Assembly: GCA_017464805.1 (NCBI GenBank)
Contig: JAFTYE010000008.1
Span: 57,261 to 121,260 of the forward strand
Reading direction: 5' to 3'
DNA from: Clostridia bacterium
GTDB taxonomy: Bacteria; Bacillota; Clostridia; Oscillospirales; CAG-272
DNA: 64,000 nt
Part shown: positions 4,746 to 19,712 of the stretch, piece by piece
Position numbering within the stretch: the first letter of the stretch is position 1
How the letters are laid out: each line of letters opens with the position of its first letter
Notes under the pieces: generated by a model
What the model saw: only the letters and a program-made list of their open reading frames with translations
What the model was told of the DNA's origin: nothing
Database searches by the model: none
Program-made: the position numbers and the translations under genes

Positions 4746-5513
4746 TCACAGCATTTCCATTGCGGAGCGCTTCGTGTCCTCTTCAACAAGTGCCTCGACG
4801 GTGTTCTTCTCCACCCTCTCCAGCTTTCGGAACTCGGCATAATAGCGCAGGCCGAATTCCATCAGCGAGGCGTGGTTGAAGTGCAGGTTGTCGGGGTTGG
4901 GGGTCAGCCCCTCGGCCGAGGCAAAGCCGACGCGGTCGTGGCTCTCGGCGTAGCGGATCAGCTCCGCATTGATGCGGGAATACCACTCTCCGAGGTCGGG
5001 GGCGGGGTATTTCACCAGATAATCGCCGAGGCCGCCGACAACGAGCGGCACATCCTCTGCGCCCAGCTCGCGGCGCAGAGCCTTCATGATCGCCGTAATC
5101 TTATCGAAATAGGCAGCACAACAAGCCTCGTTGCAGTCCCCTTCTCCCTGATGCCAAAGGATCGCCACAAGCCGTGAGATTCGCATGGCAAGACGCGTAC
5201 AGGTGACGGCGTTGTCGAAAAGCAACCCACCCTCTTCCCATTGTGAGAGCGATGTGCCGCCGTCCGCGCAGGGGATGACACCGACCGTCACGTCGGGGTG
5301 GTCGAGGTAGTAAGCCTTTGCAAAGCTCTCGGCAAGACAGGTACCCGAAAAGGCTCTGTCCGGATTGACAGGACGGAACATGACCTGCCAGCGGCCATTA
5401 CGCAGAGCGTACAGCTTTTCACCGCAGGTGTCCAACGGTTCCGCATCCGCGATAAAGCCGCGACCTGCCATGTTGGATTGTCCGATGATCAAAATAGAGT
5501 GTGTCATCATCAT
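4746..5513 (-). CDS. Sialate O-acetylesterase (SASA/DUF303) carbohydrate esterase
   Basis: GQSNMAGRG, CADGGT, LWHQGEGD, DNLHF. Confidence 0.9.
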   Translation of the reverse strand: MMMTHSILIIGQSNMAGRGFIADAEPLDTCGEKLYALRNGRWQVMFRPVNPDRAFSGTCLAESFAKAYYLDHPDVTVGVIPCADGGTSLSQWEEGGLLFDNAVTCTRLAMRISRLVAILWHQGEGDCNEACCAAYFDKITAIMKALRRELGAEDVPLVVGGLGDYLVKYPAPDLGEWYSRINAELIRYAESHDRVGFASAEGLTPNPDNLHFNHASLMEFGLRYYAEFRKLERVEKNTVEALVEEDTKRSAMEML

Positions 5514-5681
5514 TCTCCTTTTTCTTCACAAAGCCGCTTTGCGGCGTATACATAAAACAGCACGGTATCCTTTTTCTTTGATATGTTGGCCATTGCTGCT
5601 GTGAAACGAACTTTTGAGTTTTGCTCGAAAGTAATATTGTCCCTGCGCAAAATCGAAGCATTTTTTGATTTCGAACGCTCC

Positions 5682-5817
5682 GTAGGGGGCGACGTCCTCA
5701 ACGCCCCGTTGCAGAATGCACAAATCGGTTACACGGCTGTTTTCGCTCGTGCAAAATTTCTTTTTTTACAGGCAAAAATTCTCTTGTTCTCGGGGCGCCG
5801 AGGACGTCGCCCCCTAC
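5682..5817. repeat. GTAG-type REP doublet (REPIN-like inverted pair)
   Basis: GTAGGGGGCGACGTCCTCAACGCCCCG (5682-5708) and its inverted copy at 5791-5817, 25/27 identical, 82-bp spacer. Each copy is an imperfect hairpin preceded by GTAG. Confidence 0.85.
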
Positions 5818-5886
5818 AAGATTAGATTTCTTTTGTCAGACAAACCACACTCTCGACGTGGGTCATAAGGTCAAAAGGTCTCACTT

Positions 5887-6168
5887 TCAAAAAAACCCTT
5901 CGCTCCAATCATCCCAATTTGGATTTTTTGATTCCACAAGCCAATTCTTTTTGGAGCGTACCCAACGCTTTAACTGTTTTTCCCGCGCTATTGCATCGTT
6001 AACCTCGGAATATTCCTCAAAGTAGACGAGCTTGTGAACGTGATACTTTTTTGTAAAGCCTTCTATTTGCTCATTTTTGTGTTCGTATAATCGTCTGCGC
6101 AAATCGTTCGTTACGCCGATATACATTACCGTATCGGTTTTGTTGGTAAGTATGTAAACGTAATACAT
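5887..6168 (-). CDS. Standalone GIY-YIG nuclease (93 aa)
   Basis: YVYILT..MYIGVTNDL.RR..EHK, FTKKY.V.KLVYFE, AIAREKQLK.W.R.KK..L.E..NP.W.D; ATG at 6168 with AGGAG RBS. Confidence 0.92.
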   Translation of the reverse strand: MYYVYILTNKTDTVMYIGVTNDLRRRLYEHKNEQIEGFTKKYHVHKLVYFEEYSEVNDAIAREKQLKRWVRSKKNWLVESKNPNWDDWSEGFF

Positions 6169-6180
6169 TAATCTCCTTTT

Positions 6181-6483
6181 CGCCCGAGATCCTGCTTTCG
6201 CGTTGCTCGGCACTTTTTCGTCCGTGTCATCCTGAGCGTAGTCGAAATCCGAGCATCGCGAGGATCAAACGGTGCGTAGCATCGTTTGGGATCTCGGACG
6301 AAAAAGATAGATTCCTACCGCCCGAGATCCTGCTCGGTTACACCTCGCACTGCTTCGCAGTTCGACTCGCTTCGCTCGCTCAGGATGACACACGGGCGAG
6401 GCTGTGTTTAGTGTCATCCTGAGCGGAGGGCGTAGCCCGTAGCCGAACCCGTAGGGCGATGCGAAGCATCGGGATCTACCTCG
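6181..6483. repeat. Cluster of branched palindromic repeats (CGTC/TGTC-type REP-like): three full units and one partial unit
   Basis: GTGTCATCCTGAGCG at 6224-6238 (+), 6377-6391 (-) and 6411-6425 (+), each unit closing with GGATCT; direct repeat CGCCCGAGATCCTGCT at 6181-6196 and 6319-6334. Confidence 0.85.
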
Positions 6484-6723
6484 TTAATGGAATGAAACCT
6501 CGACTATATCCTCCAATTCTTGCAGGGATTTTCCGTCAAAGAATTTGTCATGGATAAGCTCGTCAACATTGGTATATTTTTTGCTTTTATTCCCACACCA
6601 ACTTTCAAAAGATGGTATGGAATTGTGGACTTCTACTTCCACGCCACACGGTAGGCCGTTAAAAGTAAAATGTATATCCCAAAATTCGACGAGCAAAGCT
6701 TCTCTTAAATCTATACTGCTCAT
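6484..6723 (-). CDS. Hypothetical low-GC protein (79 aa)
   Basis: AT-rich ORF immediately downstream of the 289-aa gene; C-terminal Y..VDEL....FFDGKSL.EL. Confidence 0.7.
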   Translation of the reverse strand: MSSIDLREALLVEFWDIHFTFNGLPCGVEVEVHNSIPSFESWCGNKSKKYTNVDELIHDKFFDGKSLQELEDIVEVSFH

Positions 6724-6736
6724 AACAGAGGTACCT

Positions 6737-7606
6737 TTAAAACTCTATTTCGAAAAGCAAACTGTCGTTAAGCTCTTTTGTAGCTTGTTTTTCCATTGAA
6801 ACTTTCCCGCCTATGCCCAAAACATCATCAACGGCACAGGCAATCGACCGCGACATAGATGCACAAGAAGAGCCGTTCAACTCTAAAACCGTGGATTTAA
6901 TTGCTTTATTGCAACGCATTTCTATCAAATTTTTTACATTTTCGTCATAAGCAAACCACTTTAACTGAGGAGCCTTAGGCTCATCATGTCCCTCAAAATA
7001 CGAAATCCTTTTTCCACTTTTCTTGTTGGCGACAGACTTTTGGGATCCCGTTTCCGTAGATTTCATCACTTGCATCTTATTGGAATCGGTTTGCTTTTCT
7101 GCCTGAAATATTTCTACAGAACAACTTTTTGCCCCCAAACAATATGCGATATTATTTAATTCAGCTAATTTTTCTTCGGTTGCTTTCCCAAAAACTTGAT
7201 TTGAATTGATGTATTTTTTAGAATTGAAATTATCCTGACAATATACGTTGTCCCTTTGCGGCACAGGTATAAAAACAAGTCCGCATTTTTCTACAAACGA
7301 GGAATAAATGTGAAAAGCAGGAACTTCCTTATGTAGCTCTATCCAACCCATAGCCTCAGCATCCTCAATGAATTCGCGGTTAGCTGAGTCATCTTCTATT
7401 TTTATGATGCTTGGAATTTTGAAATCCTCCTTTTCAAAATCCGACAAGGTAACAACCGTATATTTCTTCGCCTTCTTTTCGTGAATATTCTCTTTCGTTT
7501 GATCTACAATCTTTTTCGTTTCCTCGGCAGCTTTCTTTCCAAAATCCCCCATCTTTTTCCATACGTTTGAAAAAGATTGCTTCGTTTTTTCTTGATTTTT
7601 ATCCAT
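6737..7606 (-). CDS. Hypothetical low-GC protein (289 aa)
   Basis: Long AT-rich ORF; ATG at 7606 with AAGGAG RBS; Lys-rich amphipathic N-terminus. Confidence 0.8.
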   Translation of the reverse strand: MDKNQEKTKQSFSNVWKKMGDFGKKAAEETKKIVDQTKENIHEKKAKKYTVVTLSDFEKEDFKIPSIIKIEDDSANREFIEDAEAMGWIELHKEVPAFHIYSSFVEKCGLVFIPVPQRDNVYCQDNFNSKKYINSNQVFGKATEEKLAELNNIAYCLGAKSCSVEIFQAEKQTDSNKMQVMKSTETGSQKSVANKKSGKRISYFEGHDEPKAPQLKWFAYDENVKNLIEMRCNKAIKSTVLELNGSSCASMSRSIACAVDDVLGIGGKVSMEKQATKELNDSLLFEIEF

Positions 7607-7714
7607 ATGAGGTCTCCTTACATAAAAGTGTGTTTCATAAAGACATTTGTTTTTTCGCGAATTTATGGACACTTTTTTAAAACTCTAAAAAGCTCGGTTT
7701 TTGCCTATTTCGCC

Positions 7715-9085
7715 TCATTTTCTCGTCAGGCACACCACGCACTCACAATGCCCCGTACAGGGGAAGAGGTCAACAGGTGTGACCGCACCCATTTCGTAAC
7801 CGCTTGCTGCGAGCAATTTCGCGTCGCGGGCGAGGGTTTCGGGGTTGCAGGAGATATAGACGATGCGCGAGGGCGCGAGGGCGGCGACAAAGGAAAGGAG
7901 TGCCTCGCCGCAGCCGCGGCGTGGGGGGTCGAGCACCACGACATCGGGGCGGATCTCTTCGCCGCGCTCGGCTTCGGCGGCGGCGAGCAGGTTACGAGAG
8001 TTTTCGGCATCGCCGCAATAAAACGAGGCATTTTGGATGCCGTTGCGCTTGGCATTGCGCTTCGCGCAGGCGACCGCCTCGGGCACGATCTCCACGCCGA
8101 TGACCTCGCGCACGCTATGCGCCATAGAAAGCCCGATGCTGCCCACACCGCAATAGAGGTCGAGGAGCAGCTCTTTCCCTGTGAGGCAAGCCAGCTCTTT
8201 TGCACGCGCATAGAGGAGCTCCGCAGCATCGTGATTGACCTGATAAAATGCGGCAGGTGAAATTTCCAGTTCCACGCCCGTAAGCGTATCCGTCATGGTC
8301 TTTTCGCCGTATAGGGGGATATATTTATCGCCGCAGATGACGTTGGTTTTCTCGCGGTTGACGTTGATCAGAATGCCCGTGATCTGCGGAAATTTTCCAA
8401 CAAGGCTGCCCACGATTTCGAGCGAGTGGGGCAACTCCTTGCCGTTTAAGACGAAGGTGAGCAGGATCTCGCCGCTGACCTTTCCAGCGCGCAGGTAGAT
8501 ATGGCGCAAAAGCCCCTTCCCTGTTTCTTCATCGTAAACGGGAACGTTGTACTGCTCGATCAGGCGGTGTAGCTCGTGCAGGATCGGAGGGAAGGCGGGG
8601 TCGCCGAGCGGGCAATCCTCAGCAGGTACGACGCGGTGACTCTTCGGTGCGTAAAAGCCGATACGCAAAGAGCCGTCCTTTTCGCGCGAAACGGGGTACT
8701 GTGCCTTATTGCGGTAGCCGTAACGCTCGCCCGTGGTAAGCAGAGGCAGAATTTGCACGTCGGGCAACCCGTTTTTGATAAAGGCATGGCGAACGGCATT
8801 TTCCTTTAAGGCGATCTCGTGCTCGCGCGTAACGCCGCGATAGGCACAGCCGCCGCAGCCGGACGCCGTGCAGGGGGATTCGGCGCGATAGGGCGAGGGG
8901 CTAAGGACTTCAACAGCCTTGGCGATCGCATAGCCCGAGGCAACACGGATGACGCGTGCGCGGACGGTATCACCGTCCACCGCTCCCGACACAAAAACGA
9001 CCATACCCTTGACGCGGCCGACGCCGAAGCCGAGGTTATTGAGGTCGGTTATCTCGATCGTATATTCCTGATTTTTGACAAGCAC
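7715..9085 (-). CDS. rlmD: 23S rRNA (uracil-1939-C5)-methyltransferase
   Basis: TRAM domain, C..CGGC, YRNKAQY, AFYQVN, DLYCGVG, LDPPRRG, YISCNPETLARD, VDLFP.T.H.E. Confidence 0.95.
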   Translation of the reverse strand: MLVKNQEYTIEITDLNNLGFGVGRVKGMVVFVSGAVDGDTVRARVIRVASGYAIAKAVEVLSPSPYRAESPCTASGCGGCAYRGVTREHEIALKENAVRHAFIKNGLPDVQILPLLTTGERYGYRNKAQYPVSREKDGSLRIGFYAPKSHRVVPAEDCPLGDPAFPPILHELHRLIEQYNVPVYDEETGKGLLRHIYLRAGKVSGEILLTFVLNGKELPHSLEIVGSLVGKFPQITGILINVNREKTNVICGDKYIPLYGEKTMTDTLTGVELEISPAAFYQVNHDAAELLYARAKELACLTGKELLLDLYCGVGSIGLSMAHSVREVIGVEIVPEAVACAKRNAKRNGIQNASFYCGDAENSRNLLAAAEAERGEEIRPDVVVLDPPRRGCGEALLSFVAALAPSRIVYISCNPETLARDAKLLAASGYEMGAVTPVDLFPCTGHCECVVCLTRK

Positions 9086-16824: not shown

Positions 16825-19461
16825 TTATCCGATCTTTGCTAGGGCGGCGACGAGAGCATCGAGGGTAGCACGGTACTTTTCGAGCTTTGCCTTCTCGCCC
16901 TCTACTACGGCGGCGGGCGCCTTGGCAAGGAAGCCCTCATTGGAGAGCTTGCCGGACAGGCGGGCAATCTCACCCTCGGTCTTCTTAACCTCACCTGCAA
17001 GGCGCGCGCGCTCCTTATCGAGATCGAGCATGTCTGCCATCGGGATATAGACGGTAGCGGCATCGGTGACGATGCTGACGGCATCGTCTGCCGTATAGGC
17101 ATCCACAATCTCAAGCGAAGAAGCGGAGGCGAGCTTTTCAAAGAACGGGACCGCGCTCTTGTAGGTTTCGGGATAGCGGGTCACCACAAAAAGCTTGGCA
17201 CGGCGGGAGGGCGGCACGTTCATCTCCGCACGGCGGGCGCGAATAGCGCGGATGCTGTCCAGAACGCGCTCCATCTCCTCTGCCTCGGCGGTGAAGGCAA
17301 GCTTCTCATCTGCCGTAGGATAAGCGGCGATCATGATGCTTTCCTCGGTGTGCGGCAGGGCGGAATAGATCTCCTCGGTGATGAAGGGCATATAGGGATG
17401 CAGGAGTTTGAGGGTCGAGCCGAGCACGTAGACCAGCACGCGGCGTGCAACCTTGGCCCCCTCGCTGTCCTTATCGTACAGGCGGCTCTTGCACAGCTCG
17501 ATATACCAGTCGCAGAGGATGTCCCAGGTGAAATCGTAGATGGTGGAAAGAGCCACACCCAGCTCGTAGTTGGCGAGCGAGAGGTTGACGGTTTTTGCCG
17601 CCTCGTTGAAGCGGGCGAGCACCCATTTATCTTCTTTAGCGAGCTTGTCTGCTTCCGGAAGGGTCAAGAGGCTTTCGTCCTCCTCCTCGGGCAGGTTCAT
17701 GAGCACGAAGCGCGAGGCATTCCAGAGTTTGTTGGCGAAGTTGCGCGCGCTCTCGATTTTCTCGTCCGAGAAGCGCATATCGTTGCCGGGGGCGTTGCCG
17801 CTGGCAAGTGCGAAGCGGAGCGCGTCCGCGCCGTACTTGTCAATAATCTCCAGCGGGTCGATGCCGTTACCGAGGGATTTCGACATTTTGCGTCCCTGTG
17901 CGTCGCGGACAAGACCATGGATGAAGACGGTGGAGAAGGGTTCCTTGCCCATATGCTCCATGCCCGAGAATACCATACGGGCGACCCAGAAGAAGATGAT
18001 ATCGTAGCCGGTCACGAGGACGCTGGTGGGATAGTAGCGTTCGAGGTCGTCCGTCTTATCCGGCCAGCCGAGCGTGGAGAAGGGCCACAGAGCCGAGGAG
18101 AACCAGGTATCGAGGACATCCTCCTCCTGACGCATGGGTGCGCCGCACTTGGGGCAGACAGCAAGGTCATCCTTGGATACTTCCATATGGCCGCAGGCAT
18201 CGCAGTAAAAGGCGGGGATGCGATGACCCCACCAAAGCTGACGGGAGATGCACCAGTCGTGGACATTCTCCATCCAGTTGGTGTAGATCTTTGTGAACCG
18301 TTCCGGCTCAAAGCGCACGCGGCCGTCGCGCACGACCTCAAGAGCCGGGCCTGCAAGCGGCTCCATCTTCACAAACCACTGGTGTGAGGTCAGCGGCTCG
18401 ACGGTGGTGTTACAGCGGTAGCAGGTACCGACGTTATGGTTATGCGGCACAACCTTGATGAGGTAGCCCTGCTCCTCAAGATCCTTGACAAGAGCCTTGC
18501 GGCATTCGTAGCGGTCCATGCCCTCGTATTTGCCAGCGTGGGCGTTCATGGTCGCGTCGTCGTTCATGACGCGGATGCTTTCCAGGTTATGACGCTTCCC
18601 TACCTCAAAGTCGTTGGGGTCGTGGGCGGGGGTGATCTTCACACAGCCCGTACCGAAGCCGATCTCGACGTACTCGTCGGCAACGACGGGAATCTTGCGG
18701 CCGACGATGGGCAAAATCAGCTGCTTGCCAATGAGGTGCTTGTTTTCCTCATCGTTCGGGTTCACGGCCACGGCGGTATCGCCGAACATGGTCTCGGGAC
18801 GGGTTGTGGCGATCTCCACGTAGCCGTCCTCGCCGTCAATGGGGTAACGGACATGCCAGAAGGAGCCTGCCTGCTCGGTGTACTCAACCTCGGCATCCGA
18901 AAGCGCGGTGATGCAGTGCGGGCACCAGTTGATGATGCGGTTACCGCGGTAGATCAGCCCCTTGTTGTAGAGGTTGACGAACACCTCGCGCACCGCGCGG
19001 GAGCAGCCCTCGTCCATGGTGAAGCGCTCGTGCGCCCAGTCGCAGGACGTGCCGAGTTTTTTCAGCTGGCTGATGATGCGGCCGCCATACTGCTCCTTCC
19101 ACGCCCAAACGCGCTCCAGGAACTTTTCGCGACCGAGATCGTAGCGGGTAAGACCCTCATTCTTGCGGAGACTTTCCTCTACCTTGATCTGGGTGGCGAT
19201 GCCCGCGTGGTCAGTGCCGGGAACCCACAGGGTGCTGTACCCCTGCATGCGCTTGGCACGCACAAGGATGTCCTGCAAGGTCTCGTCCAATGCGTGACCC
19301 ATATGGAGTTGACCCGTGACGTTGGGGGGCGGAATCACCACCGAGAAGGCGGGCTTGCGCGGATCGGGATCGGGCGCGAAGTACTTCTTATCACACCAGT
19401 TTTGATAGATCCTGTCCTCAAAGGAGGCGGGATCGTAGGTTTTGGCAAGTTCTTTTCTCAT
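16825..19461 (-). CDS. valS: Valine--tRNA ligase
   Basis: [30 protein letters not shown]-terminal coiled coil; Val T-box upstream. Confidence 0.98.
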
Positions 19462-19489
19462 ATTCCTGATTCCTTTCGGATTTTTTGCA

Positions 19490-19712
19490 AATAAAAAACG
19501 CCCTGCAAAAAAACAGGACGCCATGAGCGCGGTACCACCTGTGTTGATGCGCCGAGGGCACATCCACTCAACTGCCTTAACGCGGCATACGGCGGGGTCT
19601 ACTGCATTCTTCCCGCGGCTCCGAAGCGACCTTCACGCATTCCCTCGCACGGGCTTACACCAACCGCCCGCTCTCTGTGCCGATGACACGCGCTACTCTT
19701 TTCATCATAGCC
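19490..19712 (-). ncRNA. T-box riboswitch, specifier GUC (Val)
   Basis: Minus strand: AGTA, AGAGAG, GGTTGGTGTAA, specifier GAAG-GTC-G (19628-19630), T-box AGGTGGTACCGCG (19528-19540), terminator CGTCCTG..CAGGGCG-T6. Confidence 0.92.

What the first reader, a model, noticed from the sequence alone, without database searches (positions are those of the whole stretch)
5862..6483. Standalone GIY-YIG nuclease embedded in its own palindromic repeat cluster: candidate RAYT-independent REP mobilisation system
Seen: a 93-aa GIY-YIG gene whose RBS directly abuts a partial repeat (6181), followed by three ~66-70-nt units GTCATCCTGAGCG...GGATCT in alternating orientation (6225-6294 +, 6325-6390 -, 6412-6477 +). 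A possibly eroded copy (GTCAT..GGTCTC, 5862-5882) lies just past the stop codon. Termini are conserved while interiors differ in sequence but all fold. Known: REP clusters surround their cognate nuclease in RAYT systems. From memory, CGTC-tagged repeats have been noted beside small GIY-YIG genes, but I know of no established mechanism. Inference: the nuclease recognises and nicks these folded units and spreads or rearranges them.
Basis: partly seen in the sequence, partly recalled or inferred. Interest (0 to 1): 0.78.

Follow-up and report, generated by a model that had tools for sequence, protein, structure and literature searches.

The report
Ssn-type nuclease with hairpin repeats
A tiny nuclease gene sits beside copies of the folded DNA repeat that enzymes of its family cut as single strands, a pairing described in 2025, and here the repeat is an unusually long, modular version.

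Summary
A 93-aa single-domain GIY-YIG gene (5887-6168, minus strand) is preceded by three complete repeat units and one partial unit, GTCATCCTGAGCG...GGGATCT, in alternating orientation.

The pairing is already published as the Ssn/SRM system (Chenal et al. 2025, PMC11893778). There, 94-aa GIY-YIG proteins bind GTCAT-tagged hairpin repeats as single-stranded DNA and nick just upstream.

Evidence for membership:
- The protein is 51% and 45% identical to small GIY-YIG genes that directly abut canonical NTS repeats.
- In 201 genomes of the same order, 10 of 12 genomes with a homolog hold at least 2 copies of the repeat tag, against 10 of 189 without one.
- All 15 homolog loci inspected carry such hairpins.

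What differs:
- The units are 58-83 nt, with one to three extra covarying hairpins inside the conserved closing stem.
- The published search motif finds none of them.

Mobility of the units is supported in relatives: one genus has an empty orthologous site, a full repeat-gene-repeat insert, and a 28-nt remnant. That the nuclease drives this spread is not shown.

Verdict: a new variant of a known kind, of moderate interest.

The parts
5887..6168 (-). ssn-like gene: 93-aa single-domain GIY-YIG nuclease
   Evidence: PF01541 scores E 3.9e-18 over residues 1-74. It is 51% identical (E 1.9e-31) and 45% identical (E 3e-28) to NTS-flanked small GIY-YIG ORFs. Y16, G18, R26, H30, Y49 and E63 are invariant in 17 relatives.
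6172..6176 (-). GGAGA ribosome-binding site, 3 nt upstream of the ATG
   Evidence: Read directly from the sequence.
6181..6212 (-). 3' part of a 5'-truncated unit, in the orientation of the gene; it ends ...AGCAGGATCTCGGGCG 12 nt before the start codon
   Evidence: The 16-nt direct repeat matches 6319-6334. A same-orientation unit sits just upstream of the start codon in L004, L185, L186, L187, L190 and L143 as well.
6213..6306 (+). Unit 1: core 6225-6294 enclosed by a perfect 12-bp stem (6213-6224 / 6295-6306), nested inside the truncated unit
   Evidence: Inverted repeat I7. DNA fold -27.4 kcal/mol, z -5.9.
6319..6398 (-). Unit 2: core 6325-6390 with the outer stem CGCCCG/CGGGCG
6412..6477 (+). 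Unit 3: a core without an outer stem
   Evidence: Contigs of other copies in metagenome runs lose homology at 6411-6413 and at 6477.
5862..5882 (+). Possible eroded inverted unit just past the stop codon; its GTCAT end abuts the remnant of the rlmD-like gene
   Evidence: GTCAT plus GTCAAAAGG-TCT, compared with GTCGAAGGATCT in simple units. No fold was found. The position matches the downstream units in L185, L188, L190 and L004.
5822..5860 (-). Context: a duplicated remnant of the 3' end of the rlmD-like gene (HVESVVCLTKEI*), marking the left edge of a low-GC island
   Evidence: My own reading of the sequence printed, compared with the C-termini printed. Matches in relatives come and GC content.

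Best explanation
This is an Ssn-type system: a single-domain GIY-YIG nuclease gene together with its cognate hairpin repeats (Ssn-related motifs).

Each unit has four conserved features: a 5' tag TGTC, a closing stem ATCC/GGAT (or ATTC/GAAT), the loop boxes GAGCG and AGYCGAA, and a C right after the stem. Between the boxes sit one to three hairpins that vary in sequence but keep their pairing.

Most likely the protein binds the tagged strand only when it is single-stranded and folded, during replication, repair or DNA uptake. It would then nick a few nucleotides 5' of the tag.

Status of each step:
- Shown here: the anatomy, the covariation, the gene-repeat association and the homology to NTS-flanked genes.
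- Shown only for homologs in print: ssDNA-specific binding and cutting.
- Inferred: that this protein cuts these longer units.
- Open: what that cutting does in this organism.
For: Published model: a 94-aa GIY-YIG SsnA binds the NTS repeat CGTCATTCCCGCGMAVGCGGGAATCYRG as ssDNA only and cuts upstream. In that study 71% of homologs are flanked by related motifs (PMC11893778).

- The protein is a 93-aa, single-domain GIY-YIG.
- It is 51% identical to an ORF whose start lies 2 nt from an exact NTS, and 45% identical to an ORF flanked by NTS-like tags on both sides.
- Among 41 relatives, the gene clade is present in 6 genomes and the tag (at least 2 copies) in 6, with 5 genomes having both.
- In the order sample of 201 genomes, 10 of 12 genomes with a homolog hold at least 2 tag copies, against 10 of 189 without one.
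- In G145 and G154 the only two tag copies in the genome flank the gene in inverted orientation.
- Hairpins of this kind lie beside the gene at 15 of 15 loci inspected. Ten carry the GTCATYCT(T)GAGCG type, one a close variant with GAACG, and four a GTCATTGCGAGC type. This was judged by regex and by eye.
- The closing stem and the first inner hairpin covary.
Against: - The published degenerate SRM motif matches none of the copies here (0 of 14 tags; its 8 hits lie elsewhere), and it had no match in any locus then held, L001-L010.
- I could not compare the protein directly with N. meningitidis SsnA or assign it to cd10448. The two Neisseria genomes I reached hold only UPF0213-type and UvrC-type GIY-YIG genes.
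- Only 1 of the 8 repeat loci in this genome is next to the gene.
- Of 13 genomes in the order sample with at least 5 copies, 8 have no detectable homolog and one has a homolog with 3 in-frame stops. G034 has 54 copies but only a UvrC-type GIY-YIG.
- The folding energy of most cores is not better than that of shuffled sequence.
Confidence: 0.8

Rival explanations
1. Selfish-element reading (the first reader's, and compatible with the best explanation). Repeat-gene-repeat is an autonomous, IS-like ssDNA element whose nuclease starts its own movement. Solo units would then be MITE-like derivatives that the nuclease spreads, often into the hairpin loops of other units.
For: - In the genus of G145, one intergenic site is empty in G244, G243 and G247, whose flanks are 78-94% identical. 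The same site holds repeat-gene-repeat in G145, a 28-nt GTCAT...ATGAC remnant in G255, and another long unit in G249.
- G145 and G154 hold only the two copies that flank the gene.
- The gene is patchy: 5 of 24 congeners have a match at E <= 0.001, 4 of them of this clade.
- The G046 gene and units are 90-92% identical to the window's, while the neighbouring rlmD-like gene is 64-83% identical.
- G021 has a three-deep nest of minimal units in which two levels share the same outer stem.
- Seven nested pairs occur in G000 (by eye).
- No Y1 transposase was found in 4 of 5 repeat-bearing genomes.
Against: - No transposition chemistry is known for a lone 93-aa GIY-YIG nuclease, which has no strand-transfer or ligation activity.
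- The paper offers IS-like mobility only as a hypothesis, and it shows a host-level role in transformation instead.
- The nested pairs in G000 look like copies of two or three composite founders, so they are not independent events.
- The 138-nt difference between G000 and G046 lies between 16-nt direct repeats, so it can equally be a deletion.
- Repeats persist in many genomes that lack the gene.
Confidence: 0.35
2. The repeats are host REP-like or terminator-like elements that are maintained or moved by other factors. The GIY-YIG gene merely landed among them, or uses them as a landing pad.
For: Seven of the 8 repeat loci in G000 have no GIY-YIG gene nearby. Eight of 13 repeat-rich genomes lack a homolog. 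G034 carries 6 Y1-transposase matches.
Against: The tag is not found in 32 of 41 relatives, and its presence tracks the gene clade. Distant homologs carry a different hairpin type next to them, GTCATTGCGAGC or the canonical NTS. Repeat type clusters on the protein tree with 4 changes, against 6.6 expected from shuffles (as low in 1 of 200), although that tree is poorly resolved. No terminator-like T-runs follow the units.
Confidence: 0.1
3. A free-standing dsDNA homing endonuclease that targets the 3' end of the rlmD-like gene.
For: The gene lies at the edge of a low-GC island inserted in the 3' end of that gene, next to a duplicated 3' end. There are weak PHROG matches to GIY-YIG homing endonucleases, E 5e-4 and worse.
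Against: The protein has no DNA-binding domain. TIGR01453 scores 24.7 bits against a cut-off of 56. Homologs sit at unrelated sites in other genomes. Other congeners carry different cargo without this gene at the same site.
Confidence: 0.04
4. The units are structured RNA genes or ribozymes.
For: They have conserved junction boxes together with covarying hairpins.
Against: There is no Rfam match at E <= 1. Units occur in both orientations relative to neighbouring genes. Per the paper, SsnA does not bind RNA.
Confidence: 0.03

Closest known systems
Ssn nucleases with NTS/SRM repeats (Chenal et al., Nat Commun 2025, PMC11893778)
   Same: A single-domain GIY-YIG protein of about 94 aa. Repeats with a GTCAT tag, a palindromic stem and a C after the stem. 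Repeats that flank the gene, often inverted on both sides. Co-occurrence of gene and repeats across genomes. Intergenic clusters of units in alternating orientation.
   Different: The units are 58-83 nt, with one to three extra hairpins and conserved GAGCG / AGYCGAA boxes inside the stem, compared with single hairpins of 20-50 nt. The published search motif misses them. The host is a gut Clostridia-type genome, going by the names on the protein hits, whereas the paper says most homologs are in Gram-negative bacteria. Copy number is low: 14 tags.
RAYT / REP-BIME systems and the IS200/IS605 family
   Same: Hairpin repeats recognised as ssDNA, clustered in alternating orientation around a small nuclease gene.
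   Different: Those enzymes are HUH Y1 transposases, which can both cut and rejoin DNA. No such gene was found in this genome. The enzyme here is a GIY-YIG hydrolase.
UPF0213 / YhbQ small GIY-YIG proteins (PDB 1zg2)
   Same: Similar size and the same fold family. This is the only PDB sequence match, at E 4e-4.
   Different: The genome's own UPF0213-type gene (contig C1:16620-16850, 38% identity) has no repeats beside it. The same holds for the Neisseria UPF0213-type genes.
GIY-YIG homing endonucleases (I-TevI type)
   Same: The catalytic domain.
   Different: Those enzymes carry a DNA-binding domain, cut dsDNA and live in introns or phage genomes. The TIGR01453 score here is below the cut-off.

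Membership tests
Ssn (SsnA-like, cd10448) nuclease with SRM repeats | Single-domain GIY-YIG protein of about 94 aa | tested here: met
   93 aa; PF01541 covers residues 1-74 and there is no other domain.
Ssn (SsnA-like, cd10448) nuclease with SRM repeats | Homology to SsnA (the paper uses E < 1e-10 to the N. meningitidis protein, or cd10448 assignment) | tested here: inconclusive
   The direct test was not possible, because no SsnA sequence or CDD model was at hand. As a proxy, the protein is 51% identical (E 1.9e-31) and 45% identical (E 3e-28) to ORFs that abut exact or near-exact NTS repeats. The two Neisseria genomes reached gave no match; Pfam found only UPF0213-type and UvrC-type GIY-YIG genes in them.
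Ssn (SsnA-like, cd10448) nuclease with SRM repeats | Catalytic tyrosines and glutamate (the paper mutated Y6, Y17 and E64) | tested here: met
   Y5, Y16 and E63 are present, read from the translation. Y16, R26, H30 and E63 are invariant in 17 relatives. Equating them with the paper's residues by a one-residue offset is my inference.
Ssn (SsnA-like, cd10448) nuclease with SRM repeats | Gene flanked by its hairpin repeats | tested here: met
   Three and a half units lie upstream, the nearest 12 nt from the ATG. Downstream there is only a doubtful eroded copy.
Ssn (SsnA-like, cd10448) nuclease with SRM repeats | Repeats fit the published SRM motif HGTCWYN(0-2)YYVSBRHN(0-5)WNVSBRGN(0-2)RNCYNB | tested here: not met
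   The motif hits 0 of the copies; its 8 hits in the genome lie elsewhere. The tag, the stem and the following C are shared, but the loop is far longer than the motif allows.
Ssn (SsnA-like, cd10448) nuclease with SRM repeats | Gene and repeats co-occur across genomes | tested here: met
   10 of 12 genomes with a homolog have at least 2 tag copies, against 10 of 189 without one. Related genomes are not independent samples.
Ssn (SsnA-like, cd10448) nuclease with SRM repeats | Binds and cuts only ssDNA, a few nt 5' of the repeat | not testable with these tools
   This needs biochemistry.
RAYT / REP | A Y1 (HUH) transposase gene flanked by the repeats | tested here: not met
   PF01797 gives no match in G000 (91.7% complete), while the same search found the family in 6 of the 14 control genomes.
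GIY-YIG homing endonuclease | A nuclease domain joined to a DNA-binding domain; family model TIGR01453 | tested here: not met
   24.7 bits against a cut-off of 56.05, and the protein is only 93 aa.

The most novel reading that the evidence does not exclude
Repeat-gene-repeat is a previously unrecognised kind of autonomous ssDNA mobile element, driven by a lone GIY-YIG nickase with host repair or replication completing the move. Its hairpin units behave as modular MITEs that insert into the apical loops of other hairpins. That would explain the nested, multi-hairpin units seen here.
Probability: 0.25. Interest if true: 0.8.

Novelty: new variant of a known kind. Interest (0 to 1): 0.42.

Why it matters
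The Ssn paper left two questions open: how the repeats spread, and how much target diversity the family holds.

This locus and its relatives bear on both:
- They extend the family to long, modular targets that the published motif cannot find. Surveys based on that motif will therefore undercount the system in gut Clostridia-type genomes.
- They supply concrete cases for testing mobility: a genus with an empty site, a full insert and a 28-nt remnant at one position; genomes whose only two copies flank the gene; and nested units.

A sequence-specific ssDNA nuclease with a longer, structured target would also be a useful reagent if the biochemistry holds.

Tried and rejected
- Rfam on 5000-7500 at E <= 1: no match.
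- Paper searches for GIY-YIG with 'repetitive extragenic palindromic' (0 papers), with COG2827 (1, irrelevant) and with 'miniature inverted-repeat' (10, all eukaryotic or viral). A search for SsnA with GIY-YIG found only the 2025 paper and an unrelated review, so I saw no follow-up on mobility in this library.
- The published SRM regex gave no hits on these copies.
- Reaching N. meningitidis SsnA through NTS loci failed. The N. lactamica and N. mucosa genomes held only UPF0213-type and UvrC-type genes. My first tblastn covered only 80 of the 120 NTS loci and found nothing. A motif regex over all 120 also found nothing. phmmer over ORFs near tags in all 120 found two homologs.
- Folding energy against shuffles is not significant for most cores.
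- The protein tree of 17 sequences is mostly unresolved, with 4 of 14 inner branches supported.
- The promoter and terminator scan of 5500-7800 was at chance level, and no promoter was found for the gene.
- No RNA holder was listed among public sequencing runs.
- Joints in metagenome contigs within the repeat cluster have short sides (20-44 nt) and probably come from other copies, so I draw nothing from them.
- PADLOC gave only weak matches (E about 1e-3) for the nuclease and none for the two neighbouring ORFs.
- The genus of G154 holds a single genome, so no empty site could be sought there.

Full report
**What is there**

The window's minus strand carries a 93-aa ORF at 5887-6168. Pfam assigns it to the GIY-YIG catalytic domain at E 3.9e-18 over residues 1-74, and nothing else matches.

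Its GGAGA ribosome site lies 4 nt from CGCCCGAGATCCTGCT (6181-6196). That sequence is the 3' end of a truncated repeat unit and recurs exactly at 6319-6334.

- core 6225-6294 (+)
- core 6325-6390 (-)
- core 6412-6477 (+)

All three share an identical 15-nt terminus, GTGTCATCCTGAGCG. Unit 1 is enclosed by a perfect 12-bp stem (6213-6224 / 6295-6306) and sits inside the truncated unit.

**Is it more than chance?**

In the 1.76-Mb, 17-contig genome the tag GTCATYCTGAGCG occurs 14 times, against 0 for the reversed control pattern. The copies lie at 8 loci, each between long ORFs. Only one locus is next to this gene. A second, 38%-identical GIY-YIG gene on contig C1 has no tag copy beside it.

**Anatomy of the unit**

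I compared 52 tag-bearing segments from this genome and five relatives and 31 un-nested units. They share a common frame, in this order:
- an optional outer stem of variable sequence
- TGTC
- a closing stem, ATCC or ATTC
- the box GAGCG
- a variable hairpin
- the box AGYCGAA
- GGAT or GAAT, then CT

In G027 and G034 the frame is complete as listed. In the window's genus, one or two further hairpins sit between AGYCGAAC and GGGATCT. In G021 the unit is minimal: TGTCATCCTTGAGCGAAGCGAAGGATCT.

Covariation supports the frame:
- The closing stem changes C-G to U-A on both sides in 5 of 26 units and is paired in 100% of cells.
- All 5 pairs of the first inner hairpin show double changes.
- The overall covariation score is 0.215, against 0.109 in shuffles (0 of 500 reach it) and at most 0.107 when partners are slid.

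Energy alone does not support it. Only unit 1 with its outer stem stands out (z -5.9), while units 2 and 3 do not (z -0.6 and -0.2). The median z over the 31 cores is -1.3.

**What it is**

A literature search led to Chenal et al. 2025 (PMC11893778). I read its Results, its Discussion and the Methods section on motif definition. The paper reports the following:
- SsnA is a 94-aa single-domain GIY-YIG protein of N. meningitidis.
- It binds the hairpin repeat NTS, CGTCATTCCCGCGMAVGCGGGAATCYRG, only as single-stranded DNA, and cuts a few nucleotides upstream.
- Three further homologs do the same on their own repeats.
- 71% of homolog loci carry at least one related motif (SRM).
- In Neisseria the enzyme lowers the integration of transforming DNA that carries NTS.
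- The gene-between-repeats layout resembles an insertion sequence, and the RAYT/REP parallel is drawn. Mobility is offered only as a hypothesis.

The units here share the GTCAT tag, a palindromic stem and the C after it. However, the published degenerate motif finds none of them: 0 of 14 tags, and its 8 hits in the genome lie elsewhere.

**Membership**

I could not obtain N. meningitidis SsnA. As a proxy I scanned public genomes for the exact NTS, which gave 120 loci, and searched the ORFs near the tags. Two are clear homologs of the window's protein:
- A 109-aa ORF in a Gammaproteobacteria MAG, 51% identical (E 1.9e-31), whose start lies 2 nt from an exact NTS in the same orientation.
- A 96-aa ORF in an Anaerolineales MAG, 45% identical (E 3e-28), with NTS-like tags on both sides.

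The N. lactamica and N. mucosa genomes reached through NTS loci hold only UPF0213-type and UvrC-type GIY-YIG genes, so they say nothing either way.

Y16, G18, R26, H30, Y49 and E63 are invariant in 17 relatives. Y5, Y16 and E63 line up, one residue off, with the residues the paper mutated. That alignment is my inference.

**Association across genomes**

Sample of 41 genomes (this one, 24 congeners and 16 from the same order):
- The gene clade is present in G000, G015, G021, G023, G024 and G027.
- At least 2 tag copies occur in G000 (14), G015 (56), G023 (6), G024 (11), G027 (102) and G034 (54).
- 32 genomes have no copy.
- G021 carries the minimal variant of the unit beside its gene.
- G034 has repeats but only a UvrC-type GIY-YIG gene.

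Sample of 201 genomes from the order:
- 12 have a homolog at E <= 1e-10.
- 10 of those 12 hold at least 2 tag copies, against 10 of the 189 without a homolog.
- Against the link: of the 13 genomes with at least 5 copies, only 5 have a homolog (one of them with three in-frame stops), and 8 have none. MAG fragmentation at repeats could hide some genes, but that is conjecture.

Related genomes are not independent, so I give no p-value.

**Loci of homologs**

All 15 gene loci inspected carry such hairpins within 330-600 nt. About ten carry them on both sides, typically one unit in the gene's orientation just upstream of the start and an inverted one just past the stop. I judged this from regex marks and by eye.

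In G145 and G154 the two flanking copies are the only ones in the genome.

Four loci carry a different hairpin, GTCATTGCGAGC...GCAATC, and the two NTS-flanked genes carry the canonical type. On a poorly resolved tree, repeat type needs 4 changes against 6.6 expected from shuffles, as low in 1 of 200. This is a hint of co-variation and no more.

**Mobility**

In the genus of G145 one intergenic site appears in four states:
- empty in G244, G243 and G247, with flanks 78-94% identical
- repeat-gene-repeat in G145
- a 28-nt GTCAT...ATGAC remnant in G255
- another long unit, ending in GGATGAC, in G249

G021 has three minimal units nested at the loop apex, and two of the levels share the same outer stem.

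In G000, seven loci hold a unit inside a hairpin of an oppositely oriented unit (by eye). Several of these are clearly copies of the same composite, so they are not seven independent events.

G046 carries the first two-thirds of the gene and units 2-3 at 90-92% identity, while the neighbouring rlmD-like gene is 64-83% identical. It also lacks the 138 nt between the two 16-nt direct repeats. That difference can be read as an insertion or as a deletion.

No Y1 transposase was found in G000, G015, G027 or G108.

Together these results show that repeat-bounded units come and go. None of them shows that the nuclease does the moving.

**Context**

The gene and the repeats lie at the left edge of a low-GC island, about 0.35-0.45 GC against 0.55 for the surroundings. 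The island is inserted in the 3' end of an rlmD-like methyltransferase gene. A 13-codon remnant of the old 3' end sits at 5822-5860 and abuts the GTCAT of the putative eroded unit. Congeners have no insert (G019) or other cargo (G016, G046) at this site.

Metagenome contigs show that the unit family is abundant in the source community. Summed contig depth reaches 2688 over 6367-6417, against about 8 on the flanks. Other copies lose homology at 6391, 6411-6413, 6447 and 6477, which are the borders of units and modules.

**Verdict**

The system is a member of the published Ssn/SRM kind, with a longer, modular repeat that the published motif misses. ssDNA-specific nicking next to the folded unit is the most likely activity, but it is inferred from homologs. 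The mobilisation idea remains open. Comparative cases are now in hand that would let it be tested.

Noticed in passing
window 5822-5860 (-) and 7715-7760 (-); loci L050, L056, L058: The last 13 codons of the rlmD-like methyltransferase gene are duplicated: HVESVVCLTKEI* at 5822-5860, against ...CVVCLTRK* at the live gene's end. They bracket a low-GC island of about 1.9 kb. Congeners have no insert (G019), a 257-aa ORF (G016), or a 288-aa ORF with repeats and a truncated nuclease gene (G046) at the same site. No integrase is visible.
   Followed up: partly
window 5682-5708 / 5791-5817: An inverted repeat with 27-nt arms (93% complementary) and 82 nt between them, GTAGGGGGCGACGTCCTC.... The arms recur in congeners. 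This is a different palindromic element from the one studied.
   Followed up: partly
window 6484-6723 (-) and 6737-7672 (-): Two island ORFs lie on the nuclease's strand. The 79-aa ORF matches phrog_15041, of unknown function, at E 2.3e-11. The 311-aa ORF matches nothing in Pfam, NCBIfam, PHROGs or PADLOC.
   Followed up: partly
L004 (G021), upstream of its nuclease gene: Three minimal units are nested one inside another at the loop apex, in the same orientation. Two of the levels carry the same outer stem, CCCCATCG/CGATGGGG.
   Followed up: partly
L186 (G154), L187 (G082), L189 (G130): The nuclease ORFs run on into the downstream inverted unit, which gives them repeat-encoded tails such as ...DSSLRSE*. 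This probably explains the odd C-termini in annotated homologs and some of the longer database entries.
   Followed up: no
L196 (G255:C26, about 19460-19490): A 28-nt GTCATCCAGAGCAAAGTCGAAGAATGAC sits at the site where G145 has repeat-gene-repeat. It reads like the two outer tags joined after loss of the interior.
   Followed up: partly
window 6316-6468, runs X1-X4: Summed contig depth over units 2-3 is up to about 300 times that of the flanks. Many contigs end their homology at 6447 and continue with GGATCT, meaning copies that lack the last inner hairpin.
   Followed up: partly
G034 (same order): It has 54 tag copies and no Ssn-type gene found, but 6 matches to the Y1 transposase family PF01797. 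It is the one repeat-bearing genome searched in which a RAYT-like enzyme could be involved.
   Followed up: no
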